From Glaucostegus cemiculus (lineage: Eukaryota), in contig CDPCPM010000114.1 in the NCBI GenBank assembly GCA_976551045.1, positions 620,001 to 684,000 on the forward strand: a stretch of 64,000 bases of DNA, read 5' to 3'. How positions within the stretch are numbered: position 1 is the stretch's first letter; the number at the start of each line of letters is the position of its first letter. Positions 7,401 through 63,720 of this stretch are shown piece after piece. Position numbers and translations under genes: made by a program. The notes under the pieces are model-generated. The model made no database searches. It saw only the letters and a list, made by a program, of their open reading frames with translations, and had not been told where the DNA came from.

Positions 7401-7620
7401 AACAAGTTGTGTAAATACATTTAGGAAATTCTGAGAATGTTAACAGAAATAAAATGGGATGGAGTAAGCAGAATGGCAAACTAGAAAATCCGCCTCAGTG
7501 GAACGGGTTTATGAATGAAATGGGCTCCGAAGTGAATGGGTCAGGCAGCATCAATGGAGAGGCAAACATAGTTAACGTTTCCGATCAATGACCCTTCGTC
7601 ACAACTGATGAAGGGACGTT
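4500..7620. promoter_or_regulatory. CpG-retaining block 1 (putative non-methylated island/promoter)
   Basis: CG dinucleotides are visibly frequent here versus the depleted flanks. Motifs: GTCACGTG E-box at 4598-4605, TCATGTGACGT E-box/CRE overlap at ~7344-7354, G-tracts at 7311-7341. Donor-like sites occur on both strands (+ GTAAGT at 6785; - GTGAGT at 6852-6847). Confidence 0.55.
7051..7114 (-). repeat. Penelope-type terminal-repeat half unit
   Basis: gatgctggaaattgaaatgaaaacaaagtgccgaaaacactcagtatgtcaggtagca matches the repeat family that recurs about 15 times in this window. Confidence 0.65.
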
Positions 7621-7700
7621 GAACTGAGTTTTCTCTCTCCACAGATGCTGTCTGACCTACAGTATTTCCAGCACTTCGTTTTTATTTTAGATTTCCAGTA
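7539..7700. mobile_element. Inverted pair of Penelope-type terminal repeats with decayed hammerhead motifs
   Basis: The left half (tcaggcagcatc...gttaacgtttccgatcaatgacccttcgtcac) is the reverse complement of the family unit. The right half (ctgatgaaggg...tctctccacagatgctgtctgacc...gatttccag) is the sense unit. Confidence 0.75.
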
Positions 7701-9270
7701 TTCCTGTCTATTTACCCGTAGAAGCTTTCATTGTCTACTTGTACATTATTTGCTAGTTTTCTTTCTTACTGATTTTTCTCACTTTTGATAATTTTCTTGG
7801 TATTTCTGGCCTACCATTAATCTCTGCAACATTGTTTGCCTTTTCTTTTAAATTGATACCACCCTTAACTTCCTTTGTTAGCCATAAACAATGCATCTTT
7901 CTCATAGGTCTTTTCTTTCACACTGAAATACACCTTTGCTGAGATTTATTAACTATTTCCTTAAATGTCTGCCATTGCTGATCTGCATCTTACCCTTTTA
8001 GTCTATTTTCCAGTCCACTTCAGTGAGCTTTGTTCTTGCACCATTGCAATGCCATAATTTAGACACAGACCTTCGCTTTTGACCCTCAAACTGCATTTGA
8101 CAGTTGACCAGACAATGATCGCTCTTTCCTAGGGGATTCTTTCCTGTGAGATATATGAGACTACCAGATCTAAAATAATCTGCTCCCTAGTGGGTTCCTC
8201 AACAAGTGTTCAAATAACTCATTCTGAATACACACTATGAGCCTGTCCTTAAGGCTAGTTTTGCCAATTTCATTTCTCCAATCTATATAATTATTAAAAT
8301 CACCCTTGATTATTCTGCTTTTTTTTTACAAGACCACATTATTTATTTATTTTTACAGCAGTATCTTAGGGTTTTTTAATATTACTCCCACCAGTGACTT
8401 CTTACCCTTTTTTCTTAACTCCACCCAAACTGATTCCTGAAGTTTTGAGCTTCTGAACCTCAATATCATTCCTCACCATTGTGGGATTTCATCATTTATT
8501 AACAGAGCCATTACAGCTACTTTTTCTTTCAGCCTATCCTTCCAAAATGTCAAATATCCCTGAACATACAAATCCCAATTTGGTTACCTTGCAACCATCT
8601 CTCTAATAGTTATCAGATTATTCCCATTTATATTTGCGCTGTCAATTTGTCTATCTTGTTGTGAGGGGTACAATCAGAAAAACAGAATTTCATTGTATTT
8701 TTCCTTACCCTGACTTTTTGCCGGAGTATGCTCTGTTCATTCCTGATGAACTCTGCGTATCATTACATGTACAATTGCCTCCTTTCTTTTCGCCTTCTAA
8801 AATACCACTTCACTGAACTGCTACCTTCTACTTCAAACTCAGTTTTCCTCCTGCTTCTAACTGTTTCCCAACCCCTTGCCAAGCTAGTTTAAACCCTCCA
8901 CAATAGGACTAGCAAACCACGCTGTGAGGATATTGTTTATATTCCTGTTGGAGTGCAACCTGTCTGACTTGTAGAGGTCTATCTTCCCCAAGAAATTATC
9001 ATTGTTCCACATCTCTCCAGTCATGCTCCAATCTGCTCTGTACACCGACTTTTGCACACACTAGCACTTAGCATTGGAAATACTTTAGAAATTCCTACTT
9101 TGATGTCACTAGCACATGGTACTGGTAATAATTCAGAGATTACTATCTTTTGAGGTCCTGATTTTTAATTCCTTAGCTCCCCAAGCTCTGCCTGCAAGAC
9201 CTCATCTCCTTCTACCAATGCTGTTGGTACCAATATGGACCATGGCCCCTGCCTGTTCACCCTCCCCTTT
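7700..9270 (-). mobile_element. Old CR1 LINE: ORF1 end plus ORF2 endonuclease region
   Basis: The minus strand of ~8161-8203 reads VEEPTREQIILDLV (CR1 APE endonuclease 'EPTR...LDL'). The minus strand of ~8884-8934 reads NILTAWFASPIVEGLN*, resembling the end of a CR1 ORF1 esterase. Heavily decayed. Confidence 0.75.
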
Positions 9271-9399
9271 CAATGGCATGAAATAGTCAGATTCCATGCA
9301 TGTGCTGGCAGAATTCAGCTCTACCTCACCACCAGCTCTCCACTAACTATAGATTGTTGGTTGGAATATAATTGCTATTGACTTTGCCTTTGCACCACC

Positions 9400-10110
9400 A
9401 TCTCAAACTTTAGTATCTGACCATTAATTTCTTGCCACAACCTTCCTTTTTAACCACCATGCCCACCCCAACTCCTCCCCCCATCCCATACCCTTTCCAT
9501 TGATAAGGCCACCTTTTCTACCTCTAATATCATCCACTTTAGTTTATATTTATCTTAAAACCCTCATCCATTATTTCTTTATCTCCATTGCTCAAAATCT
9601 GAAGTTGACCTGACTTCACTTTCATTTCAATCTTTCATAAACTCAGCCACATCACATTTCTAATCTTTGTGCTTCAACTTTTCAAGACCAATTCATCCAT
9701 AAACCCTACACAGACTGATCAGTATACTGATCTTTCATGAAGTAAAAGATCATGTTTTCAAATCCCTTTGTCCTCATATCTCCTTTCCTTGCAAACTATC
9801 CCTTTTCAACAATTCTCAGAAACCTCTATTTGTTCAACTCTGCCTTTCTTGCATCCTTAGTTACTTTGCTGCACATTTGGTGACTACCTTTCGATACTTT
9901 ATTGGAGGCCAATCATTCAGCCACCTTGCCCCTAAATTGTGTAATTTTGCCCTGTAATCGCTGCCTTTCCATTTATTTCAGTTGCTCACTAAAATCTACA
10001 TTTTTGACCAAGCTTCTGGTCCTTTTTTATTCTTTCTCTGTTTTTGCCTAATTAAAAACCTGGTAAGTGTATTTGGGTGTTTTTTAAGAGTTCAAATCGT
10101 TATTGTTGTT
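9400..10110 (+). mobile_element. Very decayed L2-like LINE remnant
   Basis: Pyrimidine-rich tract ending in 'tttttgaccaagcttctggtc...gtaagtgtatttgggtgtttt...ttgttgttg', similar to the L2-type 3' ends at 17100-17220, 26660-26700 and 41570-41660. Confidence 0.45.
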
Positions 10111-10139
10111 GCTGGATTGAATTGACCTGTGCTGTGCTC

Positions 10140-12570
10140 CCGGGTTAAGATACTAATGTTGTGAGTGGTGCGTAGGATCGTGGAGCCTCTAGAAGAGAAA
10201 CCCAGTATTGGACATGCACAGGTGATGCCGAGACAGAAAATGAATAAAGGGAGCTGATGCGATCGTGTCGAGACCGCTGTTGGTGGTGGTGTGTGAATAT
10301 GTCAGAGTGGGAGTTGACGCGTGTATTAAGACATTGTTGAAGTGTGTCAGGTGGGAGGTGAAGCACTGCGTAGGGGCTGTGCGTGGAATCTGAATGTATC
10401 AAGAATAGGCTTTTTGTGCCTGCGTGAAATGTACATTTTATCTTTCCTTTGTTATGTGCACTCGCAGCGTTCACTAAACTTGGTGCAACGCCGTGCACGA
10501 TCTAGTTCATTCGCTGCTAGTCGACATCGTGCTGATAGCTTGCTGGAACTAAGAGCTTTGCGGGCTGGAGTAAAGATATTTTAGCAAGTCTCTTTCATTC
10601 TCGTGTGTCACGCGGTCAGCGCCTGTCGGTTGGAAAGATCTTTAACTCTTAAGCACCGGTGACAGATTTGATATAATTATTGGTTCGAAGCTGGGGAAAG
10701 TCATCGATCACCAAGCCGCAGAGAGCGTCTGAATTTCTGGACGGATTCCAAACCGTTTCGCAATACTCGGGAATAATAAATAGGCACTTCCAGGTTGCCT
10801 TGAAATCCCAGAGTATTCAATGACTAAGGAGCTTGTGAAAGCTCCACTCAGTTGATACAATTGTACTCAATGGCGAATGTTTTCCATTTAAACCATGTGG
10901 TGGAGGAGGGGAGGGGTGGGTTGGGGCAGGTGGAGTAAATTACTACTACCCACCATGGATTCCAAATATGAAACATGTTGCATCTGAATGCTTCTGTATC
11001 TCACTATCGGTTTGGCTTTGAAACATTCTCCGGAATTGCCCGATTAAGTTAAAGTATTGAACGGTAATGTGTTTGGAGTTGAGTTCAGTATATTTCAGTA
11101 AATCTTATCAGCTCATTAAAGGGGGGAATTTGATTCGTTTGTAAAGGAATAAGAGAGCACGATGCACAATGGAAATAAATGCTGTCATGTGAAGCGGGGG
11201 ATTGGGCTTGGTGAGTACCGCGGAATGCGGCAGCGTGAGGGACTGCCACGGTGGTTACCGAGGCCAAATCACGCTCGAATCGCGGAAGCGGAAGTCCGAG
11301 CGCTCTTCTGCTCCTTTTCTGGAGGAGAGTCACTATGTCGGCTCTATTGCCGGTACAAAACAATTTTATAAAGAATGATTTGCATACTGCTGCCACACGT
11401 AGGAAGCCTGCTACCGACTTTATTTCCGTCGGGATAGTGCCTCGGGTGACAGGGAGGCCGAGAAAGCTAGTACTGTAACTTGTGAAGCGTTAGGAAGGAG
11501 CTGTCGTATGCGTGAAGGGGGCGGAAAGCGGCTTTCCGCCCCCTTCACGCATACGACAGCTCCTTCCTAACTTTGGCCGAGTCAATCACACACATAGGGT
11601 CACTGATGGTGAACAAGATTTAGGGACCATTGACGATGAATTGGAATAAACACGGCCTTCTGCCATACAGAACTGTCAGATGGTTGGCCATTTCTTTTGT
11701 ATCGCCATCATGTCAGTTTTTGATAAAATGAACTGCTTAAGCCTTCCTTTCAGTTCCACCCCATATCCACTAACCCCCCCCCCCCCCCACACGCACAAAC
11801 ATACAGACACCGGTTGAGTACTGACTGCTTTGTATGTTAGCAAGATACTATTTCCCTTACTAAGCGCTGATATTACAAGCACGCTCAGAGGTGTCGGACT
11901 AGCGGAGCAACACTGAACCTTCCGCGTGCCCATCAAATTCAAGAGTATGTCGACACCAAATATACTGAATGATTGACACAAGTGTCTTGGAAAGTCTATA
12001 GGTGTACTATTTTAGTAAAACATCGTAAAATATCCTCAGAGTTATTAACTTACCAATTCGATCGCTCGAGATTGACACCTTCCGAAAAAAAATAGCAATT
12101 TAAGTTAGCTCTATCTCAGATTCAGCTCGACGATCACAACATGCAAAATTAGTTGAGCTGGAACAGCAGCCTATTAACCGTGAATAGTACACAGCGCTGG
12201 CATTCAGATGTTGTATCAAAGAATAGTTGATTTGCAAATGATGAATCCCTGCACATAACAAATCTCAGGGAGATGTCCAGCGGAGGATAATAAGTTCTTT
12301 TGCGAAGAATGGAACATAATATTTTGGAGGCCTATTGCGTTTTTTTCTCCCTGTCGGATTTCTTTTTCCATACAGTTTTGCCGAAAAGGTGGTAGCTGTT
12401 TTGATGCAGTTCCACAGTCATTTTCCTGGAATTCATTTTTTTCAGTTACATGACAGTCACGGACTGTCATCATCTTCTTTGATAACAATTGCTTTTCCTC
12501 GGGACGATTTTCTATGGGAGCATGAGCAGGTCAAGTGAGAAAAGGAGAACCTCCCAATCAACCCATCGTG
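10140..12570. promoter_or_regulatory. CpG-retaining block 2 (putative promoter/first exon)
   Basis: Dense CGs; tandem ETS-type GCGGAAGCGGAAG at ~11282-11294; four G-tracts at 10908-10926; donor TTG|GTGAGT at 11210/11211. Confidence 0.6.
11489..11571. repeat. Perfect inverted repeat, 41-bp arms with a 1-nt spacer
   Basis: gttaggaaggagctgtcgtatgcgtgaagggggcggaaagc (11489-11529), then g (11530), then the exact reverse complement (11531-11571). Confidence 0.98.
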
Positions 12571-13969: not shown

Positions 13970-16810
13970 TTATGATTTATACATTTCTGGGATGTGGGTT
14001 TTGCTGACGTCCTAAAATATTGTCCATTTCTATATGCCCATGAGGCGGTAGTGATGAGCCACTTCTTGAACCACTGTGGTCCTGCTAGCAGAGCCACTTA
14101 CATTGCTGATGGGTAGGGAATTTCCAAGTTAGAGTATTGTGAGATTTAGAGAGGAATCTACAGGTGATTGTGCTCTCATGTTCCTGAAGCCCATTTTTTT
14201 AAGCAGTGGAAATTGTGGGTTTGGGGGGGCATTGAGGAGTAGCTGGGATGAGTAATTGCAATGCATTTGTAGGTGGTACACACTCTATAGTGATTTTGAG
14301 TTGGTGGTAGAGGGGGGGCCAAGCACGTTGCTTGTCTTTGGTAGTGATAAATTTCCTGAGTGATGTTGGAGCTGCATTCACCTAAGCAAATGGAGAATAT
14401 ACTATCACACTCCTGACTTAGGCCTTGTGGATGATGGAGGGGCCTTGGGTGTCAGGAGGTGAATTACTGGCTGTAGAATACCAAACCTCTGGCCTGCTTT
14501 TGGAACCACAGTATTTATGCACTTTCAGATGAAGGATCTTCAGCCTGAAATGTTAACTCTGTTTCTGTTTCCACAGATGCTGTTAGATCTGCTGAGTGTT
14601 TCCAACATTTTCTGTTTTTTATTGTGGAATTTATGTGGTTGGTTTAGTTGATTTGCTTGTTGATCAGTTGTGACCATCAGCATCACACCCCCCCCCCCCC
14701 ACACACACACCCCTCTCCCAGATGTTGATAATAGGGAACTTGGTGAAGGTAATGGCAATGAATATCAAGAATAGGCAGTTAGATTCATTATTGCTGTAGA
14801 TGGTCATTACTTGACACTTTTGCAGCGTCAGTGTAGTATGTCACTTGTCATCCCATTTGTCAGATTTCCATGTTTTTGCAGGAATGGACTACTGCATTTA
14901 CTGAGAAGTTGTTAATGGAACAGGACATTGTGCAATCATCAGTGAATATCTCCACTTCTAATCTAGAGTTGGAAGGAACATCATTAATGAACCAGCCAAA
15001 GATGGTTGGGCCTACAACATTTTCTTGAGGGACTGCTGCAGTGATGCCCTGGGACTATCAGGATTGACTGAAACATCTTTCATTGTGTTAGGTTTGAATC
15101 CAGTCATTGGAGTATTTTCCCCTTGATATCTATTGAGTTCAGTTTTACCAGGGTTCCTTAATGGTACACTCAGTCACATGTTGTCTTGATGTCAAGGACA
15201 GTCACTTTCAGCCCACCTCTATAAATCAGCTCTTTAGGCCATGTTTGATCCAAGACTGTGTTGAAGTCGAGAGCTGAGTGGTCCTGGTGATACCCAAACA
15301 GATTACTGTGGAGTTTTTGAATGGCACCGTCAATAATGCCTCCAGCACTTGACTGATGATAGAGAATAGACTAGATGATAGTTAGATTAGTCCTGTCTTG
15401 CATTTTGTGAAAAGGACACAGCTGGAAAATTTTTCATCTTGGGTTGATGCCAGTGTTGTAACTGTACCGGTTATAGAGGTACAGGTAGCACAATTTGTTT
15501 GGTATTATGGTTGGGATGTGGACCAGTCCTATAGTCTTTGCTGCATCCAGTGTTCTCTGTGGTTTCTTCAAATCTCATAGGGTGAATTGAATTGGCTGAT
15601 GACTGGCTTCTGTGATGTTGAGGATTTCAATAAGAAGCTGAGACAGATAATCCATTTGGCACATCTCATTTTACGTTGTTGTGGGTGCATCAGCCCTGCT
15701 TTTAGTATTTACATGCTGGGCCCTGCTATAGTTGAAGATGAGAATGTCCTTGGAGCCCCCTCCTCCCTTTAGCTGTTTTATAATCCACTGCCGTTTGTGG
15801 CTAGGTGAGGCAGGACTACAGAGCTTTGATCTGATCTGTTGTTGAAGGATCACATCTCTGCCTATTCATACTGTTTAGTACTTGTGTAGTTGTGTGTAGC
15901 ATTTTTGTCAAGTTGGTACCTTATTTGGTGCTACTGCTGCAATGCCCTTCTGCATTCCTCATTGAACCAGGGTTAATCCCTTGACTTGATTGTAGCATTA
16001 GTGTGGGGGATATGATGGGCCATGAGGTTACATATTGTGGTGGTGTTCAGGTTTTGCGGTTCTGGCTGATGGATACCCAGTTTTGGGTTGCCGGATCTGT
16101 TCTGAATCTATTCTATTTGGAATGATTGTGATGGTGCCTAACATGAAGCAGGTTCTCAATGGGTAGATGGGATTTTGTTTCCACAAAAATTCTGCAATGG
16201 TCACTTCTACCAAGATTATCCTGCATCTGCTAGAGGTAGGTGGGCAAGGATAAGTAGATTTATCCCTGGTGTTGGTTAACTCACTACCTAAAGCATACCT
16301 AGTCTTGTCACAATGTCCTTCAGGGTTTGGCCAGCTCAAACAGTGATGGTGCAACCAGTCCATTCTTAGCGATGGTCAATGAGATTATCATCCAGAATGC
16401 ATTCTGTGACATTGCTATTTTCATTGCTTCTTTCATGTATTCTCCAACGTGGAGGAAATTTGATTCATGAGTTGAGGAAGGATTATATGTGATATTCATA
16501 AAGAGGTTTCTTTGCCTATATTTGACACAATGTCATGCGGTTTCATAGGATCTGGACTCATTGTTGAGGGCTCCCAGGAATATTCTTGCCTTTATACCAC
16601 ATTGCTGCTTCCTTGGGTGAGTCAGTTCTGTACTTGGGACAAAGAGTTATGAATCTGTGAGTACAGTTGTGTCAGGCTGTCACTTAGCTGTTCTCTGGGA
16701 CTGCTCTCCCATTTTAGGCACTAGCCCTAGATGTTTGTGAGGAGGACTTTGCAAGGTCAACTGGACAGGGAATAGCTCTTGTGTTTCTGAAGTTGATTCT
16801 GGGCAGCCTG
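13970..16810 (-). mobile_element. Long decayed copy of the same old LINE family (RT and upstream region)
   Basis: The minus strand of ~14370-14436 reads IIHKA*VRSVIVYSPFA*VNAA, a decayed form of IYKAQVRSVMEYSPLAW. The segment at ~15660-15860 is homologous in reverse orientation to 19900-20030. It is interrupted by a short terminal-repeat unit at 14520-14628. Confidence 0.7.
14520..14628 (+). mobile_element. Solo Penelope-type terminal-repeat unit inserted in a LINE
   Basis: cagatgaaggatcttcagcctgaaatgttaactctgtttc...ccacagatgctg...tccaacattttctgttttt; flanked by the direct repeat ATTTATG (14513-14519 and 14629-14635). Confidence 0.75.
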
Positions 16811-16899
16811 GCCTGTTTTATTCTGCTTCATGGTTACAAGGGCATTGAAGAGTTAAAATGGATGGACAATGGCTGTTCGAGTTAGAACTATTTTGAAAG

Positions 16900-20934: not shown

Positions 20935-21560
20935 TTCAGGCAGCCTCCATGAATAAATTTCCATTTTCATCTGGTTGGGTTTAGTCCTCCTCTTACACCT
21001 TTTTTACCTGAAACACTAACTGATTCTCTTTCCACAGACACTGACCATTTTCAGCATTTTCAGTTTCAGATTTCCAAAATTTGCTGTTTTCCCCCCACTA
21101 AGAATAAGGTAAGAAGGTAATGTGGTAATATGGTTATAATTTTAAACACTAAAGAGGTCATAGTATTTAGATTCCTGCAAAAAAAAACACAGTCTTGGCC
21201 ACTTTTTCTCTTAGAAACATGAGCAGTTTGAGTCTGAGCTGAAGTTTATACTGTAGATTTGATCCTTTGCCAGTGCTGCTGCTTTTTCCACCTGCTTACA
21301 ACCATCTTTCTCTTCTGCCTGAAGGTGTTACAACCATCTATTTAGAAATCATTTTATCATTTCAAGGTTTGATTTTCCTTTTAAATAAAATTAGAAATTT
21401 TCAACTCAGTCAGTATCTTTGGAGAACATAAGTCAATATTTTGGGTTAAATCTTTCATTAGCATCAACTGATATCTTGTTCCTATTTCTCACTCTATAGC
21501 TACTGTCTGAGCTGAGGAGCATTACTAATATTTAATGTTTTACTTAAGATATCCAACACC
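20935..21560. repeat. Two highly decayed inverted Penelope-type terminal-repeat units
   Basis: 'cctgaaacactaactgattctctttccacagac...cagcattttcagtttcagatttcca' at ~21005-21080 and a second decayed pair at ~21380-21560. Confidence 0.5.
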
Positions 21561-22199: not shown

Positions 22200-23509
22200 A
22201 CTTGGAGAGGTATGGCATGATTAGAAATAGTCAGCATGGTTTTGTCAAGGGCAGGTCCTGTCTTACGAGTCTTATAGAATTTTTTGAAGAAGTGACCAAG
22301 AACGTCGATGAAGGGAGATCGGTAAATGTAGTGTATATGGATTTTAGCAAGGCGTTTGATAAGGTGCCCCATGCGAGGCTTATGGAGAAGGTGAGGAGAC
22401 ACGGGATCCAGGGGGACGTTGCGGTGTGGATTCAGAATTGGCTGTCCTAAAGAAGGCAAAGAGTGGTTGTGGAAAGGTCGTATTCTGAGTGGAGGTCGGT
22501 GACCTCCGGTGTACCTCAGGGATCTGTGCTGGGACCCTTGCTGTTTGTCATTTTTATAAATGACCTGGATGAGGAAGTGGAAGGGTGGGTTAGTAAGTTT
22601 GCGGACGACACGAAGGTTGGGGGAGCTGTAGATAGTTTGGAGGGCTGTCAGAGGCTACAGACGGACATAGATAGGATGCAGAGTTGGGCTGAGAAATGGC
22701 AGGTGCAGTTCAACCCAGATAAGTGTGAAGTGGTTCATTTTGGTAGGTCGAATAGGTTGGTGGAATATAAAATTAATGGTAAGACTCTTGGCAGTGTGGA
22801 GGATCGGAGGGATCTTGGGGTCTGAGTCCATAGGACACTCAAGGCGGCTGCGCAGGTTGACTCCATGGTTAGGAAGGCATATGGTGTATTGTCCTTCATC
22901 GGTCGAGGGATTGAATTTAGGAGTCGGGAGGTATTGCTTCAGTTGTATAGGTCCCTGGTCAGACCCCACCTGAAGTATTGTGTTTAGTTCTGGTCGCCTC
23001 ACTACAGGAAGGATGTGGAAGCTATAGAGAGGGTGCAGAGGAGGTTTACGAGGATGCTGCCTGGAATGAGGAGCATGCCTTATGAGAGCAGGTTGCGGGA
23101 ACTCGGTCTTTTCTCCTTGGAGAGAAGGAGGATGAGGGGGGACCTGATTGAGGTGTATAAGATGATGGGAGGTATTGATAGTGTAGATAGACAGAGGCTT
23201 TTCCCCAGGGCTGAAATGGTGGCCACAAGAGGACATAGGTTTAAGGTGCTGGGGGGAAGATATAGGGGAGATGTTAGGGGTAAGTTTTTTACTCAGAGAG
23301 GTATGAGTGCATGGAATAGGCTGCCGGAAATGGTGGTGGAGGCAGATACGATAGGGTCTTTCAAGAGACTGTTGGATAGGTACACAGAGGTAAATAAGAT
23401 AGAAGGCTATGGATAAGCCTAATAGTGTGGGGACATGTTCAGCACAGCTTTGTGGGCCGAAGGGCCTGAATTCTGCGGTAGGTATCTATGTTCTATGTTC
23501 TAAGTTCTA
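22200..23509 (+). mobile_element. Young 5'-truncated CR1 (HER1-like) LINE with RT pseudogene and 3' tail
   Basis: SQHGFVKGRSCLTSL, YMDFSKAFDKVPH, GVPQGSVLGPLLF, KFADDTK and IERVQRRFTRML all lie in one reading frame (22202, 22463 and 23015 share a frame), broken by in-frame stops. The 3' UTR has 'gggccgaagggcctg' and a (ttctatg)n tail. Confidence 0.97.
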
Positions 23510-23512
23510 AAT

Positions 23513-23595
23513 AAAATACTGCAGATGCTGGAAATCTGTTTTTCTCTCCACCAATTCTACCTGACCAATGAGCCTTTTCAGCATTTCCTGTAAAT
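23513..23595. repeat. Collapsed Penelope-type terminal-repeat unit
   Basis: 'aaaatactgcagatgctggaaatctg' is joined directly to 'tttttctctccacc...cctgacc...tttcagcatttcctg'. Confidence 0.6.
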
Positions 23596-26344: not shown

Positions 26345-26482
26345 GAAACTGCAAATGCTGGAAATCTAAAATAAGAATAAAATATGCTGGAATCACTCAG
26401 CAGGTCAGACAACATCTGTGGAGTGAGAGAGAAACAGATTTGATGAAGGGTCATCGACCCGAAATTTTAAATCTGTTTCTGC
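26345..26482. mobile_element. Penelope-type inverted terminal-repeat unit with a hammerhead-like motif
   Basis: The antisense half 'tgcaaatgctggaaatctaaaataag...ctcagcaggtcagacaacatctgtgg' is followed by TTGATGA-A-GGGTC-ATC-GACCC-GAAA at 26440-26464, closed by agaaacagatt/aatctgtttct. Confidence 0.8.
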
Positions 26483-26489
26483 CCTTATA

Positions 26490-37567: not shown

Positions 37568-38090
37568 AGCAAAAAATTGTGGATGCTGGAAATCTCAAAT
37601 ATAGACATTAAATAGTGGACTTACTCTGCTGATCATGCAGCATGTGTGGAGAGAGGAAGATAGTTAATATTTTGGTTCGATGACCAACAGAACTGGGAAA
37701 AGTATGAAAACAAGACTGGTTTAAGCTACAGAGAACAGGAGAGGTGGAAAGAAGAAATGAAATGGTTGTGATAGGATGGAGAATAAGTTTGTCTAGGTGA
37801 CAAAAATGCCGTTGATGCTGTCCAGGTGAGTGTGATGTATGTCTTTTAATCATAGTTGTTCAGTTTGGAGAAGTGTAGATAGAACGAGATGAACGAGGCC
37901 AGTGAAGAGGTGGGGGTTGGGGGGAGGGGAGGGCAGCGCAATGCTGGAATTGTGAGATGTATGACAGCAGTTGCTGGAAATCTGAAATAAAAGGGAATGC
38001 TGAAAATATTCAGCAAATCAGGTAGCATTTGTGGAGAGAGGAAAAAAAAACAAGTTAATGTTGCAGGTGGATGGCCTTGCATCAGAAATG
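37568..38090 (-). mobile_element. Two tandem Penelope-type terminal repeats flanking a purine-rich spacer
   Basis: 'tgtggatgctggaaatctc...cagcatgtgtggagagagg...gttaatatttttggttcgatgacc' at 37578-37695 and 'gttgctggaaatctgaaataaaa...ggtagcatttgtggagagag...gttaatgttgcaggtggatggccttgcatcagaa' at 37970-38087. Confidence 0.7.
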
Positions 38091-38660
38091 GCTTTGGAAT
38101 TGTTGGCTCAGGGAAACATCTTTTCTGCCTCTGACGTGTTGAGCCCTTTAAGAATTTTATAAATTAAAATGAGATGACATCTTATTCTTTTAAACACCAA
38201 AGAATACAAACCTAGTCTACTTAATCTCTTCAAGTGCAGCAAACCCATTGTCTATGTATTATTGTTGCACTCTTCGGGAAGCATATCCTTGTGTAAGGAG
38301 ACCAGAACTGTAAACAATACTCCAGGTGCAGTCTCATCAAGGACCTATATAGTTGCAGTAGAACTTTTTACTCCTGTCCTCAAATCCTCTCCAGATAAAA
38401 GAGATGTTACTCTTTTAAGATCTGCTAAATATGTTAGCATTTTCTGTCCTTATTTCAAATTACACTTTTTCTTGGTATTATGTTTTATGAAGTTTTACAA
38501 GAAGGATGAAAAAAGGGGAAACATTACACATGCCTCCTAAACATTATCTGGTGCTTACAGCTAAAGTCTTCTGGGATATGATTATCGAAAAAAAGACAGG
38601 TGCAGGCTCACATATGGTGCTGTCTCTTTTCCACATTCAAATAGCCTGCCAATACTTGAA

Positions 38661-38789
38661 GTCCAGGCTCACACACCAAGCATGACTTTTTGCTTGAGAT
38701 ATTGAAGGATAACTGATACCTCTGGTCCAGGCTCACACACCAAGCATGACTTTTTGCTTGAGATATTGAAGGATAACTGATACCTCTGG
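38661..38789. repeat. Perfect tandem duplication, 64-bp unit x2
   Basis: gtccaggctcacacaccaagcatgactttttgcttgagatattgaaggataactgatacctctg at 38661-38724 and 38725-38788, with no mismatches. Confidence 0.97.
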
Positions 38790-41660: not shown

Positions 41661-41849
41661 CAGAAACACAGGAAATTCTGCAGATGCTGGAATCTGGAGC
41701 AATACACAAAAAGTGCTGGAGGAACTCAGCAGGTCAGGATATTCCTGTCCAGTCCTGATAAAGGGTCCCGACCCGAAACGTCGACTGTTTATTTCCCTCC
41801 ATGGATGCTGGCTGACCTGCTGAGTTCCTCTAGCACTTTTTGTGTATTG
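41661..41849. mobile_element. 189-bp Penelope-type unit: inverted repeats around a minimal hammerhead motif, with putative TSD
   Basis: The arms 41699-41737 and 41812-41850 are reverse complements with 1 mismatch. The centre reads CAGTC-CTGATAA-A-GGGTC-CC-GACCC-GAAA-CG-TC-GACTG (41750-41787). It is flanked by ccctaaaatgtttt / ccctgagatgtttt. Confidence 0.88.
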
Positions 41850-44800: not shown

Positions 44801-45367
44801 TTACTTCAATGATGTTAACTTTTTCATTCTGCGTCTCCACCACAACCAGTGAAAGCCCCCAACCAAGAATTGCCATCCTTGATCGTTAGTTAATTGTCTC
44901 CTTTGTATTTGACTCAAAATGTGAGCTGGCACAGTGAGTTAGTAGTTTATTCACTTATGGGAAATCACAGAACCTAAGCCCTGTGCATACCGTAGAAGTG
45001 CATATTTCAGCAATATAATCAAAAAGATAATAAGAACAGGACAAGTCTAATAATCCAGGATTCCTCTTCTTGTGTGTCAGTTTCCAGCTGATCTCAACCT
45101 TGTTTGCTGTCAATCAATGCTGCACTTGAACTGACTATTATAACTTGTGGTTGACATTCCTAGTTATTCAGGTGTTACATCAGCCTCTAAATTTTGGAAG
45201 AATTCTTGGTCTCACCTAGCTAATATACATAGAGTCATATTTGAATATCTCATGACTATTATGTTCACTAATACGCAGTGTTTGCAATTAAAATTGGTGA
45301 GCATACAGAAAATATAATAATTGAATGTAAAATGAATTTGAGGCCATTGATAATTTTTCTGTAATGG

Positions 45368-45965
45368 AACAAAACAGAAAAAATGCAAGCAGCATCTGTA
45401 GGGAGAGGAAATTTCAGGGTGAAGCTCTTTAATCAGAGCAGAGAAAAGATGTAGACACATGAGGTTGCAAATTCTGGAATCTGGAGCAACAAACAATCTG
45501 CTGGGGGAACTCAGCATCTGGATGCAGAGTTTTGCCCTGAATCATCGACAATTCCTTAGACCCCCTCCCCCCACAGATGCTGCTAACCTTGAGATCCTAC
45601 AGCAGATTGTATGTTATAAGATGTAGTAACCTATCCACGGCCAGATAAGCCATGATCTTATTGAATGGTGGAGCAGGCTGGATGGGCCAGATGGCCTACT
45701 CCTGTTCCTATTTGTTATGTTCAGCTCCTTTTGCCTTTTTGCTCCTGAGCTCCATCCTATCACAAATTTAGTTTTGTGTCCCCTTTGCTCCTCCCCTCTT
45801 TCTCTTTGGCTTAAGGTTTTTTTTTACCTTTAACTTTTTTCCAGTTCTGATGAAAAGCTGTCAAACTGCAATGTTAACTCTTTGCTCTGCTTACAAACAC
45901 TGCTTAACCAACTGAGTATGTTTGGCATATTTTTAGCTCAGATTTCCAGCAACTGCAGATTTTTT
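45368..45965. repeat. Cluster of Penelope-type terminal repeats plus a CR1 3' tail
   Basis: Units lie at ~45368-45440, ~45460-45615 (inverted pair 'ctggagcaacaaacaatctgctg' / 'agcagattgtatgtt') and 45841-45960 (agtt-ctgatga...gttaact). A CR1 tail 'ccatgatcttattgaatggtggagcagg...ggcctactcctg' lies at 45645-45720. Confidence 0.7.
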
Positions 45966-46440
45966 TTCTTTTTGTAATGGATGTATTTGGCACCTACAAA
46001 CTGCTGAGAAATAACATGATGATGATGATTTTAAGTCAGCTGTAGAGCATGATGCATGTAGATTGACAGTGGGAATACTTGTCAGTGAAACTATGCTGGT
46101 AAAGAAGTTTCAGACACAAATTTAAAAATGCCATCATACTGGCCACTTGCTCTGCAGTTGATTATGCATGAAACCGTTAAAGAAAGACAATGCTATAAAT
46201 TATATATAAGTTTTGTATCTTGTAATAATATCAGTGTGGGTTCATCTTCTTAACACACAAAAGACAGATAGAAAAATGTGATCTTTAGTTTTGTGAAAAT
46301 CTGCTTAACTGATAATTGAAAATCTATATAAATCTATGAATATAGGTATGGAATTAGATAATAACACATGCAGGTCAGTCAACATTTATTGAGTTGATAG
46401 AAAGGGGGGAAGTTGACATTGAGAGCAGGCATGGTGGTGT

Positions 46441-47528: not shown

Positions 47529-47835
47529 GTTTTTTTCCCCAGAGCGCAGATGCTCAAGACGAGAGGGCATGCCTTTAAGATAATTGGTGGAAAGTATAGG
47601 GGAGATGTCAGAGGGAAGTTTTTCACCCAGAGAGTGGTTGGTGCATGGAATGCACTGCCTGGGGTGGTAGTGGAGGCAGATACGTTGGACAGGTTTAAGA
47701 GATTGTTAGATAAGCACATGGAAGAATGTGGAATAGTAGGATATGAGGGTGGAAATAGTTAGTTTGGGAGATGTTTGTAGGATGGCACAGCTTGATGGGC
47801 CGAAGGGCCTGTTCTGTGCTGTATTGTTCTATGTT
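47529..47835 (+). mobile_element. CR1 3' end inserted after a fragment of the old LINE family (~47240-47528)
   Basis: FFPRAQMLKTRGHAFKIIGGKYRGDVRGKFFTQRVVGAWNALPGVVVEADTLDRFKRLLDKHM; tail 'gggccgaagggcctgttctgtgctgtattgttctatg'. Confidence 0.92.
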
Positions 47836-49249: not shown

Positions 49250-52200
49250 TGCCAAGTGTTTCTGTGGAGTTAGGTTTCACTGACTTAATTTGCTCAAAGG
49301 CGCTGCACGTGAATTCGAACGGGGATTACCTTGGATTGATTATGGAACGTAAAAATGGCCCAAGGGTAGAGTGGAAGTAATCGTCCGAGTTGGCCAACAG
49401 CACAGCCACAATGTCCATTAGTGGTGTTTGTATCTACTCACAACATTTGCCTATAGCGATTGGAAATGTGAAAAAGTTAATTGATTTAGATTGCGTAATT
49501 TTGGGGAAACAGTAGGGAAATAATACTAATTGGACCCTACACACATTCAGTGGGCTAGATGATTTCCTGCTGTACTGTATGATTCAATTACTCTATTTAC
49601 GGCAGCTTTAGCCCTACCCTTGCGGAAAATGGGTGCCTTCACAGTTATGGAGTGGTGCACCATTTTACGTGTGTGAGTGCATGAGTTGACGTCAGAAAGT
49701 TCACTTCTCTGAATTAATGTTCCTCTTTCCTCTGAAGAGATTAAAAATTGCCCTTAAGGAAAAGAAGGAAAACAGAAACCGAGTAAATAAACCATCTTGA
49801 TGAATTTTGGTCAGTTTTTAACAACCAGCTGTAATAATATTTAAACAGAGGTAAACTGCGAATGAGAGCGATGCAATGCCCAAGTATCTTTTTGACAACA
49901 GAGACCTACAGGTGACCCAGAAAAATGCTGGCGATACCACATTTCCCAAAATATGGGTCGCTGTATTTTCAATCTGCAGTCACCCAGGGTCTTGTCTACC
50001 TTCGAGTAGTAACTATTTGTGGCAGGATATAAAATAAAAATATTGAGCAGGTAGTAAGGTGGATAGAAAACATCCGCTATAAATTGCCTGGTTATGACGT
50101 CATAGGTAGGTGTCTCAGCGGTGAAAACATTTCCCTCCAGTGCAGCAACCCAAACTACTTGGTGCCGAGAAAGGAAAATAATCGAAACAATGATCTGTAG
50201 GTTACTTGTAATATCCGGTCACTCTTTATTGGTGTACGTCAAACGTAGTTAAGTTTGGGTAGTATTTATTGTTTACTTAAAAAACACATAAGTTTAATAG
50301 TTAGAGAATTCTTACGCGTATTTCACCTGGAAACATGCTTCAATTTTGATTTTAAAAACTTGCGTCTAGCCTGTAGAATGCAGAAATATAATGCAGCTAG
50401 CTTGATCTTTAAATGCAAACCGGAGAGTTGAAAGACCTCGTGGCAATCACCCATCCCTGAGTGCAAGGAAAGCAATCGCTTCAGTGCGAGTATTGTAAAC
50501 TGACGGGCGTTGGGTTCGCTGTTTACACACTTGTGTCCGGATATCAGGAAGCTGTCAGTGTTGTATAATGCATTTATTTAGGAGGCATTCGCCTTCAGTA
50601 GTACTGCTGTTCAGCCTTACTCCTCGACCTATTTCTACTCCTTTAATACGTTACTTCTAAAAAGAAATTAATGATTTACAATAAATACGCTAATAGGGTG
50701 AATTTAATCTGTCAATTGATCCTTCAGATGCTTCATAACCTAGCAGGGCCTTATTTTTTTACATTAATATTTTATGAATTTTACTGGCATTATCAACTGC
50801 CATACTTTTTTCCCGGAAGTATGTTGCTTCTCTGGAAAACTCTATTTGGTACCGTGGTTCGAAAGGTGCAGGTACTGACATCTTTGTTTTTCCTCTCCGC
50901 TGGTTCGTTGAAAAACTTTCCTCTGATCCTGATCTTGCAGGGGCAATGCATTGCAGAAGGCTTAAATTAATCATATATCTTAACATTTTTATTGTTTTTT
51001 TGTATGGGGAGATTGGTGGAAGACATCATTTCGTACCTAAAATATACCTGTTGCTGTTATTTATTAGCAATGTATTTACAGTTTTCACAGCTTTTGACAT
51101 TGATAAGTTTGCATTACCTCCTACTTGTCGGGGGGAGATGTTTTGACAACACGCACTAGTTAATAAATTACAGACCGAGTAGTGAATATGCTTCAGTTAT
51201 GAATTTGATTGTTCGGTGTGGCTTTTATTTTAAAAATTCACGATACTGTTTCGGGGCAGTCAAGGAATTGATAGAATCTAGTGTTAAATTGATAGCTGAA
51301 TGTTTCCAGCCTTCTGCAGTCAAATTCATTGGACGTTATAGCGAACATCATTGGGTTTCATTAACTCAGCTTGTAGTTTATTAAATGGTGTACTTTCAAC
51401 TCTCTGCAATGCAGATCTCTTTCAACGGCTGGCTTTTCATGAATATACCGCTTCATTATCCATGGGACCTGCTGGAAAGTGCAGCGTGATACATGGTAAA
51501 AGTTCCTTTATTATCGCCCTGATGTGCAAGGAGAACAATAGGAGCAAATATGCCTGTGTTCAAAATAGCTACATTTCCTGTTCAAAGGTTTTCCTTTATT
51601 GTAGCGATTTTAAAAAAAAGATTTCTCTACATGAGACTCTTCATCTTTTCAATGGATAAGCCTTGAGGTTGGTCTCTTCCATTATTTATTGCCTACCTCA
51701 CACTGAAAAAGAGCTAGTTTCTACCGACAATTTTGCCATTTAATCTTCAAATTGCGTTCCCGTGATGGATTTGATAGACCGGTCGAGCTTTCCATTAGCA
51801 TCACTGTCGGGATTCTTCGTTGTAGGCACGGTGAAATTTTTGTCTGTGCAGTGCAGCTCGGGTCAACGGGAGGCTTTGCAGTGCTAACCGCCCCAGGCGA
51901 CCATTAGCCATGACTGGGTAAGCGCTCCCTCTACCTGCTGACACGCCATTACTCATTGTGCTCCTGCAACTCTGTTCCATCACATCATACGAGAGTTTAG
52001 TATAGGGTAAACCGCACGAGTAGATAAAACCAGGGTGTGAAATAAACGATCAGGTTTCCGCATTTATCTGAGCACTTCTCATAATCACCAGGGATAAATT
52101 GCTCTGCAGAGATGATTTTGTTGCATGCCACAGTTTTACCTTTCCAGAACCTAGCTTTTCAAATCCACTCATGACCACCAAACCACACCCCCACTTCCAA

Positions 52201-52500
52201 CAATCGTGTACTGATAGGCTGATTATAATCAGTCAAAACGAAGACCAGCAAACTTTGCTCGATAAATCGCCTGAAATGTGTGCATTTTACAGTTTCACCT
52301 TCCATAGAGAGTACATTATATTAAGCAAAATAAAAAGGAACACAAAATGCTGCAATTGTTCAGCAGATCAGACTGCATCTGTGGAGCGAGAAATAAAGTT
52401 CAATACATGTGATACATTAAACTTGACCTTACTTGTTTACAATGGAAAACGATGTTACTGGTTATTCATTTATGGCTCGGCAGTTGTAATAGCATTTGAA
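49250..52500. promoter_or_regulatory. CpG-retaining block 5
   Basis: CG retained in an AT-rich background; full CRE palindromes TGACGTCA at ~49687-49694 and ~50095-50102; GCCATGACTGG|GTAAGC at 51907-51923. Confidence 0.55.
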
Positions 52501-53760: not shown

Positions 53761-53929
53761 TCCTGCTTTTACTTCCAAATATGCTTTTTAATGATTTTTT
53801 AAAAAATTAAGTTTATAATGACTGTCTTTTCCACAAGACGACAATAATCTGGAACCTTCAGAGTTAGAAAGAGTGTCACTGTGATGTCAAAATACTTTAC
53901 AAGTCAGAAAGGTGAGCACCAAACAGAGC

Positions 53930-55954: not shown

Positions 55955-56292
55955 CAAAAAAATACACATTCTGGAAATCTAAGATATAAACAGAAAATTT
56001 TTGGAAACACTCTGCAGGTCAGACAGCATCTGTGGAAATAGAAGCAGCATTACCATTTCACATTAGACCTTCATGGGGTTAACTATCTATCTGCTTTGTT
56101 GTTTGCCATGTATCCTCATGTGTAAAGTGCATGGATGAAAGAATTACAAAGATAATGGTCAGCATGGGAAACTGTCTAGTGGTGAGGAAAATAGTTATTG
56201 GAGACAAGGGATAGATTCTGACAAAAGATCTTTGACCTGAAATGTTAACTCTGTTTCTTTCCACAAGCCTGACTTGTTGAGTATTTTCTTTT
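55955..56292. repeat. Inverted pair of Penelope-type terminal repeats separated by ~140 bp
   Basis: Antisense unit 'ctggaaatctaagatataaacagaaa...caggtcagacagcatctgtgg' at 55971-56075; sense unit 'ctgacaaaagatctttgacctgaaatgttaactctg' at 56218-56292. Confidence 0.7.
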
Positions 56293-60480: not shown

Positions 60481-60639
60481 AGATTACATTGGATTCACAA
60501 GACAAGATGCAGGCTTCCACATCCAAATAAAGCTGCCAAGTTAAGTAGTTCCATAGGTCTGAAAGGTATATTGAGAAATATGATGATTTATCTTTTTTTT
60601 CTCTTTGTTACTTAGCAACCATGCATTGTTTCTAATTTT

Positions 60640-61620
60640 ATTTCATGGGGTGTTGATATTGCTGATATGACCAGTGTTTATTGGCATTCCTAATTTGCTG
60701 CTTTAAGCCACTTGTAATTGGTGAAGATACTTCCATATTAGATAAGGTGTTCCTGGATTTTGAACAAACAAGGATATAGGAATGATACCATACTTCCAAG
60801 TCAGGATCGTACGTGACTTGAAGGGAAATTTGTTTAGGATGATGTTCTTATGCATCTTTGCTCATCCCTTTAATCATGGGATATGTGGGCTTGGGAGATA
60901 CTGTTGAAGAAACCTCAATGTTGTTATAATGCATTTTGTAGATGCTACACACTGCAGCATTGGTGGTGGAGAGAGTGAATACTTGAAGTATTGGAGGGGG
61001 CATTAATCAGCTGCGTTCTTTTGTCATCAATAGTATCAAGTTTCACAAATGTTGTTAGAGCTGCACTTTCCAGGTATGTGGGGAATGTTCCATTACACTC
61101 TTGACTTGAGTGTCTAGGTGGGGAAAAAGGTCTGGGAGTCATGAAATTAATCTTATTGAAGAATATCCAGCTTTCGACCTGCTGTTGCAGCCACTGTATT
61201 TGTATGGCTGGTCCAAGTTAGGTTCTAATTAATGGTGACCCTTAGGATTTTAATGGTCAGGGATTCAGTTTGTGGTAGAGCCATTGAAAATCAAGAAGTA
61301 GGGTTAGCTTTCCTTCTTGGGTAGTGTCCTTCATCAACAATTGAGTGGCACCAAACCATTTGTCAGCCCAAGCCTTGCTGCATGAGGGCACTGATTATTT
61401 CATTATCTGACCATTGTCTTTGTGCTGCAAGGAAGATCATCGATGAAGCAGATGAAAATGATTAGACCTTGATTACTCTGAGGAACTCCTCTTTGGAGCT
61501 GAGATAAATGCCTCCAAAAACTTTAACCATCTTCATTTGTGCCAGGTGAAACAGTAGCCAACAGAGGGATTGCCTTTGATGTACACCGATTTTAATTTGA
61601 CTAAGGTTCCTTGATGCCCT
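60640..61620 (-). mobile_element. Old CR1/Jockey-group LINE 3' portion
   Basis: The minus ORF reads SAALTTFVKLDTIDDKRTQLINAPSNTSSIHSLHHQCCSV; the 3' end 'ccagtgtttattggcattcctaatttgc' is shared with the 13070 and 13970 copies. Confidence 0.72.
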
Positions 61621-63634
61621 AGGGCTCTAAAAATTAACTGATTTCCAGTCTTTTATTTGGAAGTTTAGATAATATTGAATGCTGTTTCAGTAGGTAGTAG
61701 TAAGATTATATAACTGTAGGTACTAAAGCTGATTTTACAAGTGCAAATGAGATTCTTCATTTAGGTCCCCAATATTATCTGTTACTTTGTACTTGTTTAG
61801 AGTCAGTAACAAGACCAATTTACTTGGATCATTTTGTTCAAGTTGAAAACCAATGTAAGGAAGTACAATTACCCACAGCTCCTAGACTGCATCACATCTG
61901 GAACTCCTGGGTTCCTAGGCTTGTATGAACACTTAGGAAAATCATGTGAAATTGCTTTATTGCTTCCAAAGTGTCCTATAAGTCCTTATGTATCAGTGTG
62001 CTTTGCTGTAAACTTCTGTTTTATATTGTTTTATATAAGTGACAGTCATTTTAAATTGAAATCTGCTGCAAAGTTTGTGGCTAGTTTGTTGTTTGTTTGG
62101 CTTCTTTCCCTCCACTTATTGGACAAATGATTCTACCAGTGTGCAAATGACACTAAATCAAGCTAAAGCTGCTGTTATATGCAGGGAAAACCAGCAACTG
62201 GTTTGGATCTTTTCAGAAACTCACTCGGGACATTCTCTGGAACAAAATAGATAGTTAAATAACCAATTGTGCTACATCCAGCAAATGTAAAAATTCATGG
62301 GTTTTGTTTCAGGATTAAAAAATACTTGAGATAACATGTCCAAATTATGTTTCTGTATATCCTGTCGTGCAGCAATGGGGCAGCTTTGGAGATATGCATA
62401 TCACATTCTGAGTTGCCCATTCTGTGGATAACAGTCTTAGCAGTGCACCCTGGGAAACTAGAAAGGAGAGAATGGAGATGAGAGATTAAAACAAAATTTA
62501 TAATGCAGTTAAAAATGGGATATCAGATCTTCTTTAAAAAAGCACAAATGAATGTCTATCAGTCAGTTTGTATACGTGTTTAGAGATGCTGAAGGTGCTT
62601 ACTACAAATGATAAATATAAAATGATAAATGTTGTTGGTACTATGTATACACATACTCCTAGACAAAAGATCCAATGACTCCACAGGCAGTCTTGAAAGA
62701 TTTCTTTCTTTTTAATACCTGATAGACAAAATCAACAGCAAGTTTTTTATTGCTGGGGCATTCCCAAAATTTCAACTAAGTGGCTGTTCTTAGAATATAA
62801 AGTTCAGTATGTTTTCTTGATCATCTGGGAAAGGGAGAGTGAATAAAACAATCAAAGCTGTTTCAAACTTCATCTGCCATTAAGCATGCATTTTACAACT
62901 GGAATTATAGGAAAGTGACCAGCTGCTGTTCTCGCCTTTCATGGTTCAGAGACACTGGGACAACTTCCATCATTCCCACTGCAGTCCTGCTAATTAACAT
63001 AGACAAGGGACCAAACCCAGACATTTCTGTTGTGCACTACCTGTCAACACTCCACTTAAAATACTAATGTTGCAATTTTGGAGTGCAATCCACTTTTCAG
63101 CAGTCAAATGTAGGTGAATTTAGAAATACCAATTATAATCTTGTAAAATTTTTTGATTTTGGGAATATTGTCCATGCCAGTGACCTTTACAATGCCAAGA
63201 TTTACTTGTTTTCATCATTTTCATTTCAAACAAACCCTGTATACTACATGCCTCCCAGCATAAGAGTTCTCTGGTAATATTCTAGTAAATGCTAAAGGTA
63301 GGCATTTCTCTCTTTAGTTAAGCTGTCTGGAAAATTGTTTCATGAGGGACTTTGAGGGACTAAATTTCAGCAAGATTCTTCCATAGAACACTCTGTATTA
63401 CCTTGTTCGTCAGTAACCAAACAGGCTTGTTTCTGTCAACAGAATGGACGCCCTTTTTGGAAGATTCCCAGTATGAATTTGATCAAACATTGTAACAGAG
63501 GTTAACATTTTGTAAGGAGGTGGCTCAGGACTACAGAAACGATTGAAACAAGAACAACAACAATTCTGGCTTTCTTCATTTGAATATGAAGTAATAAAAT
63601 ATGTAGAGTAAAGGAGCGTGAAATATGAATGAAA

Positions 63635-63720
63635 GTTGCTGGACATGTGCAACTGGTCAAAGGACCAGTGAAGAGAGAAACAGAGTTAATATTACAGGTT
63701 AATGACCTTTCATCAGAAAT
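63635..63720 (-). repeat. Penelope-type terminal repeat with a decayed hammerhead motif, followed by a purine-rich tract
   Basis: The reverse complement of 63684-63718 reads TT-CTGATGA-A-AGGTC-ATT-AACCT-GTAA-TA-TT-AACT. Confidence 0.65.

What the first reader, a model, noticed from the sequence alone, without database searches (positions are those of the whole stretch)
7539..63720. A dense family of short repeats whose consensus rebuilds a minimal type I hammerhead ribozyme, with stem covariation
Seen: about 15 copies of one terminal-repeat family, of which at least seven retain the motif: 7570-7606 (-), 14526, 26440, 41750, 45843, 56214 and 63684-63718 (-). Overlaying them gives stemI-CUGAYGA-A-RGGUC-loop-GACCY-GAAA-CG-UH-stemI'. 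Stem I covaries: CAGUC/GACUG with a GUC site at 41750 versus AGUU/AACU with a GUU site at 7606 and 45843. Stem II loops vary (CC, AUC, AUU, UUC, UUU) while pairing is largely kept. Established: Penelope-like elements carry minimal type I hammerheads whose helix III is a palindromic ACGU that folds as a dimer, and an extra A after A9 is a tolerated variant. Every copy here has at least one core lesion (G8A, C3U, C3G, U4A, GAAA>GUAA/GCAA). I recognise no Penelope RT or GIY-YIG coding sequence in the window. Inference: this is a very high-copy, largely non-autonomous ribozyme-bearing element in this lineage. It is the best candidate in this window for an under-described system.
Basis: partly seen in the sequence, partly recalled or inferred. 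Interest (0 to 1): 0.72.

Follow-up and report, generated by a model that had tools for sequence, protein, structure and literature searches.

The report
Penelope retroelement stubs with decayed hammerheads
These short repeats are the worn end pieces of a very common jumping gene (a Penelope-like retrotransposon, likely of a shark or ray) and carry broken copies of a tiny self-cutting RNA motif already published for this class, so the feature is real but ordinary, apart from one lineage with an untested change in the motif's core.

Summary
Observation confirmed. The window holds 21-23 fragments of one family, 13 with the hammerhead part, none intact. Genome-wide, 2,570 copies match an exact intact core (control 0); about 300,000 hammerhead-bearing copies are estimated. 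The repeat is the pseudo-LTR of a coding element: it lies downstream of the GIY-YIG match in 30 of 30 loci, and one locus is pLTR-ORF-pLTR in partial tandem. So 'non-autonomous, under-described system' is not supported: motif and anatomy match published descriptions (PMC4209133, PMC8557442, PMC3846280). Stem I covariation is real but is one subfamily-level change (C-G to U-A). Lesions follow CpG decay (32% versus 3.5%). Two smaller points: a coding lineage has C instead of A after G8, and many copies begin 3-4 bases before the core, not at the cut site, suggesting uncut templates. Self-cleavage is untested. This scan has reported the same kind many times (168 notes, at least 23 genomes; 8 in this genome).

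The parts
7044..7111 (-). pLTR 3' fragment without hammerhead
   Evidence: nhmmer E 1.3e-6
7481..7611 (-). pLTR copy, subfamily C type, hammerhead 7570-7607 with C3G lesion; head-to-head with 7604-7701
7604..7701 (+). inverted partner copy with partly deleted hammerhead
14520..14632 (+). pLTR copy, subfamily C type, U4A lesion
21006..21089 (+). decayed pLTR fragment
21406..21560 (.). decayed head-to-head pair (21406-21462 minus; 21483-21560 plus, the latter only in the looser search)
23535..23595 (+). pLTR 3' fragment
26345..26487 (.). head-to-head pair: 26345-26431 minus (with tail) and 26440-26487 plus (hammerhead, C3U lesion, intact 5-bp stem II)
37569..37699 (-). pLTR copy with tail, core partly deleted
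37958..38094 (-). pLTR copy with tail; C after G8 and GCAA lesion; 9-bp direct repeat at 37945 and 38095
41662..41849 (.). palindromic insertion: inverted arm with tail 41669-41738 minus, direct pLTR from 41746 plus with hammerhead 41750-41787 (subfamily B, G8A lesion); flanked by a 14-bp repeat with 2 mismatches (41647, 41850)
45386..45441 (-). decayed pLTR copy with hammerhead remnant
45456..45616 (.). palindromic insertion, subfamily D type (C after G8), perfect 9-bp target-site duplication at 45446 and 45618
45839..45966 (+). pLTR copy with tail, subfamily C type, GCAA lesion, stem II broken
52339..52401 (-). pLTR 3' fragment
55958..56064 (-). pLTR fragment with tail
56215..56288 (+). pLTR copy, subfamily C type, G8A lesion
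63596..63720 (-). pLTR copy, subfamily C type, GUAA lesion

Best explanation
The repeats are truncated, CpG-decayed pseudo-LTR ends of a protein-coding Penelope-like retrotransposon (reverse transcriptase plus C-terminal GIY-YIG endonuclease, likely Neptune clade) and each carries a broken copy of the published minimal type I hammerhead, which is likely inert in these window copies. Shown: the full element is pLTR-ORF-pLTR of about 3.2 kb in partial tandem; the hammerhead sits about 290 nt after the stop codon; 3' ends fall at two points about 35 nt apart (optional tail); stubs often come as head-to-head pairs with a target-site duplication. Inferred mechanism: a promoter in the pLTR (TATA-like box 31 nt before an Inr-like TCAGTY) starts RNA at the foot of stem I; the element's RT primes internally at the pLTR's 3' end, as shown in vitro for the anole element; priming in the first pLTR of an uncut RNA would give a 100-135 nt stub ending 3-4 nt before the core, priming in the last pLTR gives longer 5'-truncated copies. 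The ribozyme would be under selection only in the master elements, where it would cut weakly, as a dimer through ACGU and probably helped by the element's protein.
For: Same-strand pLTR downstream of the GIY-YIG match in 30 of 30 loci chosen by protein, 27 including the hammerhead part. L320: C-terminal coding piece, pLTR 3117-3250, ORF to 5939, pLTR 6218-6341. Protein shows YIDD, a CX4CX2C linker and CXXC inside GIY-YIG; 80 homologues, best from sharks and rays at 56-62% identity. 2,570 exact intact cores, control 0; 64 hammerhead-bearing copies in 600 kb taken at round coordinates, 3 of them intact. In 83 subfamily A copies chosen independently of the hammerhead letters, mismatch rate is 3.5% at non-CpG core positions, 5.6% at non-core non-CpG positions, 31.8% at CpG positions. 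Between subfamily majorities the core differs only at free position 7 and at position 9 of subfamily D. 5' ends: 15 of 90 anchor-chosen copies end at -19..-3 from C3, 3 of 90 at -50..-20, 0 of 90 at the cut site; 3 of 300 at the cut site, level with neighbours; in contigs of another organism the top unrelated-flank junctions are at -4 and -3 (54 and 43 contigs). Bimodal 3' ends near +95 and +131. Literature: PMC4209133, PMC8557442, PMC11167929, PMC3846280.
Against: No cleavage was assayed. Pfam RT and GIY-YIG scores are all below the curated cut-offs (E 7.6e-4 to 0.068). No intact full ORF was seen; longest open stretch of the element 525 aa. No tree with reference PLE proteins was built, so 'Neptune' rests on the linker motif. 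Nearest-neighbour folding puts the dimeric hammerhead 11-16 kcal/mol above alternative dimers in 7 of 7 usable sequences. RNA reads show no pile of starts at the proposed start site (fragmented libraries, one study, possibly another species). Part of the -3 boundary could come from GUC microhomology at inverted junctions, although 46 non-inverted copies show it too. In the looser 300-copy mapping the pile is modest: about 4 ends per base at the stem I foot, similar to the density inside the hammerhead, then a drop.
Confidence: 0.88

Rival explanations
1. The short units are a non-autonomous family (retrozyme- or MITE-like) that spreads on its own through ribozyme-cut, possibly circular RNA, using the Penelope protein in trans.
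For: Stubs far outnumber coding copies; 88 of 215 hammerhead copies lack the upstream UTR and 42 of those have an inverted partner; some units have target-site duplications; one RNA joint runs from tail end back to the stem I foot (11, 1 and 3 reads). A 2026 preprint derives animal retrozymes from pLTRs.
Against: Of 42 inverted units only 5 pairs share an upstream 24-mer, three of them within one duplicated trio and one a reciprocal view. One head-to-tail subfamily A pLTR dimer genome-wide by exact pattern. No excess of ends at the cut site. All four subfamilies have coding-linked copies.
Confidence: 0.07
2. The conserved pyrimidine tract plus YAG just before stem I is a 3' splice acceptor, as in Drosophila virilis Penelope, so splicing would remodel stem I; the 5' boundary reflects RNA processing rather than a promoter.
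For: CAG is kept in all four subfamilies even where stem I pairs only 3 bp. Subfamily C shows CTAAC-like words, a pyrimidine tract and CAG or TAG in many of 15 UTR-bearing loci. PMC4209133 maps the D. virilis intron end to helix I.
Against: The boundary is at -4/-3, not after AG (-2), and flanks are unrelated (agreement 0.33-0.35), so no shared first exon. No GT..AG joint among the 15 joints shown of 206 or 15 of 26. The whole UTR is pyrimidine-rich. It can coexist with the best explanation.
Confidence: 0.15
3. The hammerhead is a non-functional relic even in the master elements, kept only because the pLTR letters are needed for promoter or RT recognition.
For: Subfamily D amplified with C at position 9; subfamily C has a G-U or A-U pair in place of G10.1-C11.1; hammerhead mutants did not block insertion of the anole element in vitro; the 3' part of the pLTR is as conserved between subfamilies as the core.
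Against: A compensatory stem I change and variation confined to position 7 and loop II among subfamilies A-C fit selection on the fold; the motif matches the cross-phylum consensus.
Confidence: 0.15

Closest known systems
Minimal hammerheads (min-HHR) in pLTRs of metazoan Penelope-like elements, Cervera and De la Pena 2014, PMC4209133 (read: parts 1-2 of 4 of the text; part 2 of 3 of supplement 2; supplement 1 not searchable)
   Same: Consensus CUGANGAH, G-started stem II, GAAA, palindromic 15.2-16.2, NUH site, 2-6 bp stem I; mostly single truncated copies; opposite-strand pairs.
   Different: No cartilaginous fish row in the supplement part read, and 0 occurrences of shark, skate or Callorhinchus in supplement 2. 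Copy number here (about 300,000 estimated, 2,570 exact intact by one pattern) versus about 4,000-9,000 descriptor hits in coelacanth and Xenopus. No row seen has C at position 9.
EN+ Penelope-like elements, Neptune clade (PMC8557442 passages; PMC3846280 passages)
   Same: RT plus C-terminal GIY-YIG, CX2-5CXXC linker, partial tandem, inverted pLTR, 30-40 bp tail at one end, 8-10 bp target-site duplications, TATA and Inr-like motifs in the pLTR.
   Different: Clade not tested by a tree; Repbase and Dfam could not be searched, so whether this family already has a name is unknown.
PAc (Poseidon of Anolis carolinensis), Frangieh et al. 2024, PMC11167929 (read: parts 1-2 of 4)
   Same: Two 3' end points defining a tail; hammerhead in the pLTR; uncut RNA as the main template; no RNA-seq reads ending at the cut site.
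   Different: PAc is Poseidon clade; its ORF starts in stem II, which I could not establish here because L320 is frameshifted.
Non-LTR retrozymes (Li et al. 2026 preprint 10.64898/2026.07.22.740005; read: parts 1 and 3 of 5 and passages; supplements closed)
   Same: Type I hammerhead, pLTR-related, reported from one chondrichthyan.
   Different: Retrozymes are head-to-tail tandem arrays; here copies are dispersed, head-to-head or single, with one exact head-to-tail dimer found.

Membership tests
min-HHR of metazoan PLEs | Core CUGANGA ... GAAA ... NUH | tested here: met
   2,570 exact genome matches, control 0; majority intact in subfamilies A, B, C. Not met by any of 13 window copies or by subfamily D at position 9.
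min-HHR of metazoan PLEs | Extra base between position 9 and stem II; palindromic 15.2-16.2 | tested here: met
   Majority A then GGGU; ACGU in all subfamilies, eroded by CpG decay.
min-HHR of metazoan PLEs | Stems I and II with compensatory change | tested here: met
   Positions 2.1/1.1 in copies with U17: C-G 99, U-A 18, U-G 6, C.A 5, other 4; genome-wide C-G 2,560, C.A 73, U-R 204 with 41 of the first 100 listed U-A, counted by eye. One event between subfamilies; window-only test is weak.
min-HHR of metazoan PLEs | Located in the pLTR of a PLE | tested here: met
   30 of 30 protein-chosen loci; both pLTRs of L320.
min-HHR of metazoan PLEs | Self-cleavage as a dimer or with protein help | not testable with these tools
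   Needs an in vitro assay; folding energies neither show nor exclude it.
EN+ Penelope-like element | Single ORF with RT and C-terminal GIY-YIG | tested here: met
   YIDD and GIY-YIG in one 407-525 aa frame; Pfam hits below cut-off; 47% identity over 488 aa to an 889-aa RT protein.
EN+ Penelope-like element | Partial tandem, inverted pLTR, optional 30-40 bp tail | tested here: met
   L320; 42 of 88 UTR-less copies inverted; 3' ends near +95 and +131.
Neptune clade | CX2-5CXXC linker before GIY-YIG | tested here: met
   CPRHRCNTC-type motif; feature as defined, shared with Nematis and Naiad.
Neptune clade | RT phylogeny with reference PLEs | not tested
   No labelled reference set was fetched.
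Non-LTR retrozyme | Head-to-tail tandem units each with a hammerhead | tested here: not met
   1 exact head-to-tail subfamily A dimer genome-wide; none among window copies. Only subfamily A and an exact pattern were tested.
Non-LTR retrozyme | Circular RNA | not testable with these tools
   One tail-to-start joint in few reads cannot tell a circle from a genomic tandem.
Rfam hammerhead families | Covariance-model match | tested here: not met
   No hammerhead hit at E<=10 in the window; intact genome copies were not scanned.

The most novel reading that the evidence does not exclude
Subfamily D is an active natural hammerhead variant in which the bulged base sits between G8 and A9 (or A9 is replaced by C), a core form not seen in the published alignment rows I read; and the hundreds of thousands of stubs are complete short cDNAs running from the internal RT priming site to the transcription start, giving a genomic record that the Penelope RNA starts with the ribozyme and is copied uncut.
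Probability: 0.25. Interest if true: 0.5.

Novelty: new member of a known kind. Interest (0 to 1): 0.25.

Why it matters
As a kind it is known, so it matters mainly as a resource: a vertebrate genome with roughly 300,000 hammerhead-bearing stubs in at least four subfamilies lets one ask whether the Penelope hammerhead is needed at all, which published work leaves open. The lineage with C at position 9 is a natural test: if it cuts, the accepted core consensus widens; if it does not, a Penelope lineage amplified without a working ribozyme. The window copies themselves are likely inert.

Tried and rejected
Rfam scan: no hammerhead. PDB sequence search with the 525-aa stretch: 0 hits at E<=1. Cleavage footprint in genomic 5' ends: not found (0 of 90; 3 of 300); a signal of a few percent cannot be excluded, and the 90 copies are the first 90 of 16,118 matches, on contigs C1-C5. 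RNA loose ends 2 nt before the cut site (359 and 217 reads) read as a diverged copy, not cleavage. Sequencing-run search: no RNA holder listed; raw RNA of organism A laid instead: 8,739, 12,595 and 27,354 reads of 11.1, 12.9 and 12.9 million records, both strands, no start or end pile; taken as passenger transcription, one study, species identity with this genome not shown. Splice joint into the AG: none among joints shown; 2 of 9 rows (L160, window 7606) dropped because my stem II routine failed; the labels 'C' and 'A' in the upstream table are both subfamily A (my classifier erred); subfamily C was read from the 15 loci printed below it. One search had one misplaced pair and was redone. Target-site duplications are individually weak: 9 of 60 random intervals score as high as the 41647/41850 pair, 3 of 60 as high as the 9-bp perfect ones. 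Lunse et al. (about dimers of such variants) is not held; I know it only from its citation in PMC6765202 (passages), and it may already include shark motifs or position-9 variants. Literature searches for a shark or ray hammerhead: 4 papers, none on it by listing; 0; for position 9 variants: 0; 3, unrelated by listing. Penelope-like elements in whale shark and elephant shark are mentioned in 10.1101/443036 and PMC4350176 (passages). PMC2377424 and PMC6155905 were read as passages.
Full report
Observation. A profile built from window copies finds 23 fragments at E<=1; a second profile finds 21 at E<=0.01, 13 with the hammerhead part. Several are head-to-head pairs: 7481-7701, 26345-26487, 41669-41849, 45456-45616. 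The unit at 45456-45616 is flanked by a perfect 9-bp repeat and the one at 41662-41849 by a 14-bp repeat with two mismatches; such scores occur in 3 and 9 of 60 random intervals, so only their position against the unit ends makes them credible. None of the window copies passes a strict descriptor, Rfam finds no hammerhead, and no Penelope coding sequence lies in the window, although a coding piece of this family lies 2-3 kb beyond its right end.

Genome context. The window is G000:C114:620001-684000 of a 2.85-Gb assembly. One exact intact-core pattern has 2,570 matches, the reversed control 0. Sixty 10-kb stretches taken at round coordinates of large contigs hold 100 fragments, 64 with the hammerhead part, 3 intact; scaled up, about 475,000 fragments (Poisson 387,000-578,000) and 304,000 hammerhead-bearing copies (234,000-388,000). 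The sample is not strictly random.

The parent element. Open frames upstream of intact motifs encode a GIY-YIG-like end. Searching with one gives 44,637 first-look candidates, 150 scored; in all 30 loci returned a same-strand copy of the repeat lies downstream, 27 with the hammerhead part. The protein shows YIDD, a CX4CX2C linker and CXXC within GIY-YIG, the last two being the Neptune/Nematis and CCHH features described in PMC8557442. Pfam scores are below cut-off, but 80 homologues are found, the best from whale shark, stingray, bamboo shark, devil ray and zebra shark records (56-62% identity), many with RT domains, so the host is likely an elasmobranch. L320 is a frameshifted full-length copy: a C-terminal coding piece, pLTR, ORF, pLTR. 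The repeat is therefore the pLTR, about 290 nt after the stop codon, with 3' ends near +95 and +131 from C3, the optional tail of PMC8557442 and PMC3846280.

The ribozyme. In 170 copies chosen without regard to hammerhead letters, four subfamilies appear: A (83; A at position 7), B (53; U7, GUC site), C (23; 3-nt loop, U2.1 in 22, A1.1 in 19, U11.1 in 20) and D (11; C after G8). The published consensus fits A-C letter for letter. On window copies alone the test is weak. Lesions in subfamily A run at 3.5% in the non-CpG core, 5.6% outside it and 31.8% at CpG sites: copies decay after insertion with little sign of selection. Folding shows that ACGU cannot close a helix in a monomer and can in a dimer, but the dimeric hammerhead lies 11-16 kcal/mol above other dimers in the 7 usable sequences, in line with the low activity reported in PMC4209133 and the protein dependence in PMC11167929.

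Subfamily D. A non-A base right after G8 occurs in 633 exact matches, mostly C in the 100 listed, against 64 at the next position. C9 is inherited: 9 changes on a tree of the downstream part against at least 28 in 200 shuffles (34 of 221 copies, some picked by that letter), and 2 of 34 have RT/EN coding upstream. Either the bulge lies before A9 or A9 is replaced. No row in the supplement part I read shows this and two searches found nothing, but the largest paper on these variants was not available. Activity is untested. Window copies 38094(-) and 45521 carry this C.

Where copies begin. Of 90 copies picked by a downstream anchor, 25 end inside the pLTR, 15 at -19..-3, 3 at -50..-20, 47 further up, none at the cut site. 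Of 215 hammerhead copies 88 lack the UTR; in the 46 non-inverted ones A(-4) and G(-3) are kept in 30 and 33 while C(-5) falls to 21, against 121 of 127 in UTR-bearing copies. Contigs of another organism show their top unrelated-flank junctions at the same two bases. A looser mapping of 300 copies shows 3 at the cut site and a drop in density upstream of stem I rather than a sharp peak. Subfamily A has TATATA 31 nt before the A of TCAGTC, D has TTTATA at about that place; PMC3846280 notes TATA and Inr-like motifs in rotifer pLTRs. I infer a start site at the foot of stem I and stubs made by priming in the first pLTR of uncut RNA. RNA reads did not confirm a start, a cut or a splice.

Against a separate non-autonomous family: inverted junctions are nearly all unique, head-to-tail dimers are rare, and all subfamilies have coding-linked copies.

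Verdict. A correct and well-spotted catch of a known kind: a new member of the Penelope minimal-hammerhead class, already reported many times by this scan in this and other genomes. Interest 0.25. The subfamily letters A-D are my labels; hammerhead numbering follows the usual convention, recalled.

Noticed in passing
L007, L009, L010, L013-L016 (G000 C3, C4): A subfamily B hammerhead copy with a broken stem I pair is carried inside a larger repeated unit of up to 3 kb (L015/L016 98% identical), so part of the intact-core count is passenger duplication.
   Followed up: partly
L246, L248, L249 (G000 C3); eight matches on C110: Further copies amplified as passengers of larger duplications.
   Followed up: no
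window 11489-11571: Perfect inverted repeat, 41-nt arms, 1-nt spacer, unrelated to this family by the profile searches.
   Followed up: no
window 22451-23413, 44752-44801, 47533-47832: LINE reverse-transcriptase piece (PF00078, E 2.9e-14) and repeated 3' ends; recalled as CR1-type, label not from a call.
   Followed up: no
window 51342-51656: Weak beta-propeller match (E 0.0046); may be an exon of the host gene on the plus strand.
   Followed up: no
L151-L178 upstream of the hammerhead: Subfamily C carries branch-point-like CTAAC, a pyrimidine tract and YAG just before stem I, a possible splice acceptor.
   Followed up: partly
P0002, P0006, P0042, P0075: Fragments of this element's ORF are annotated as isoforms of host genes in ray and skate gene models: exonisation or annotation error.
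   Followed up: no
L327:2000-2743 (just right of the window): Truncated coding copy of the same element family, 47% identity over 250 aa.
   Followed up: no
window 38652-38779: Two head-to-tail copies of a 64-nt unit, 94% identical.
   Followed up: no
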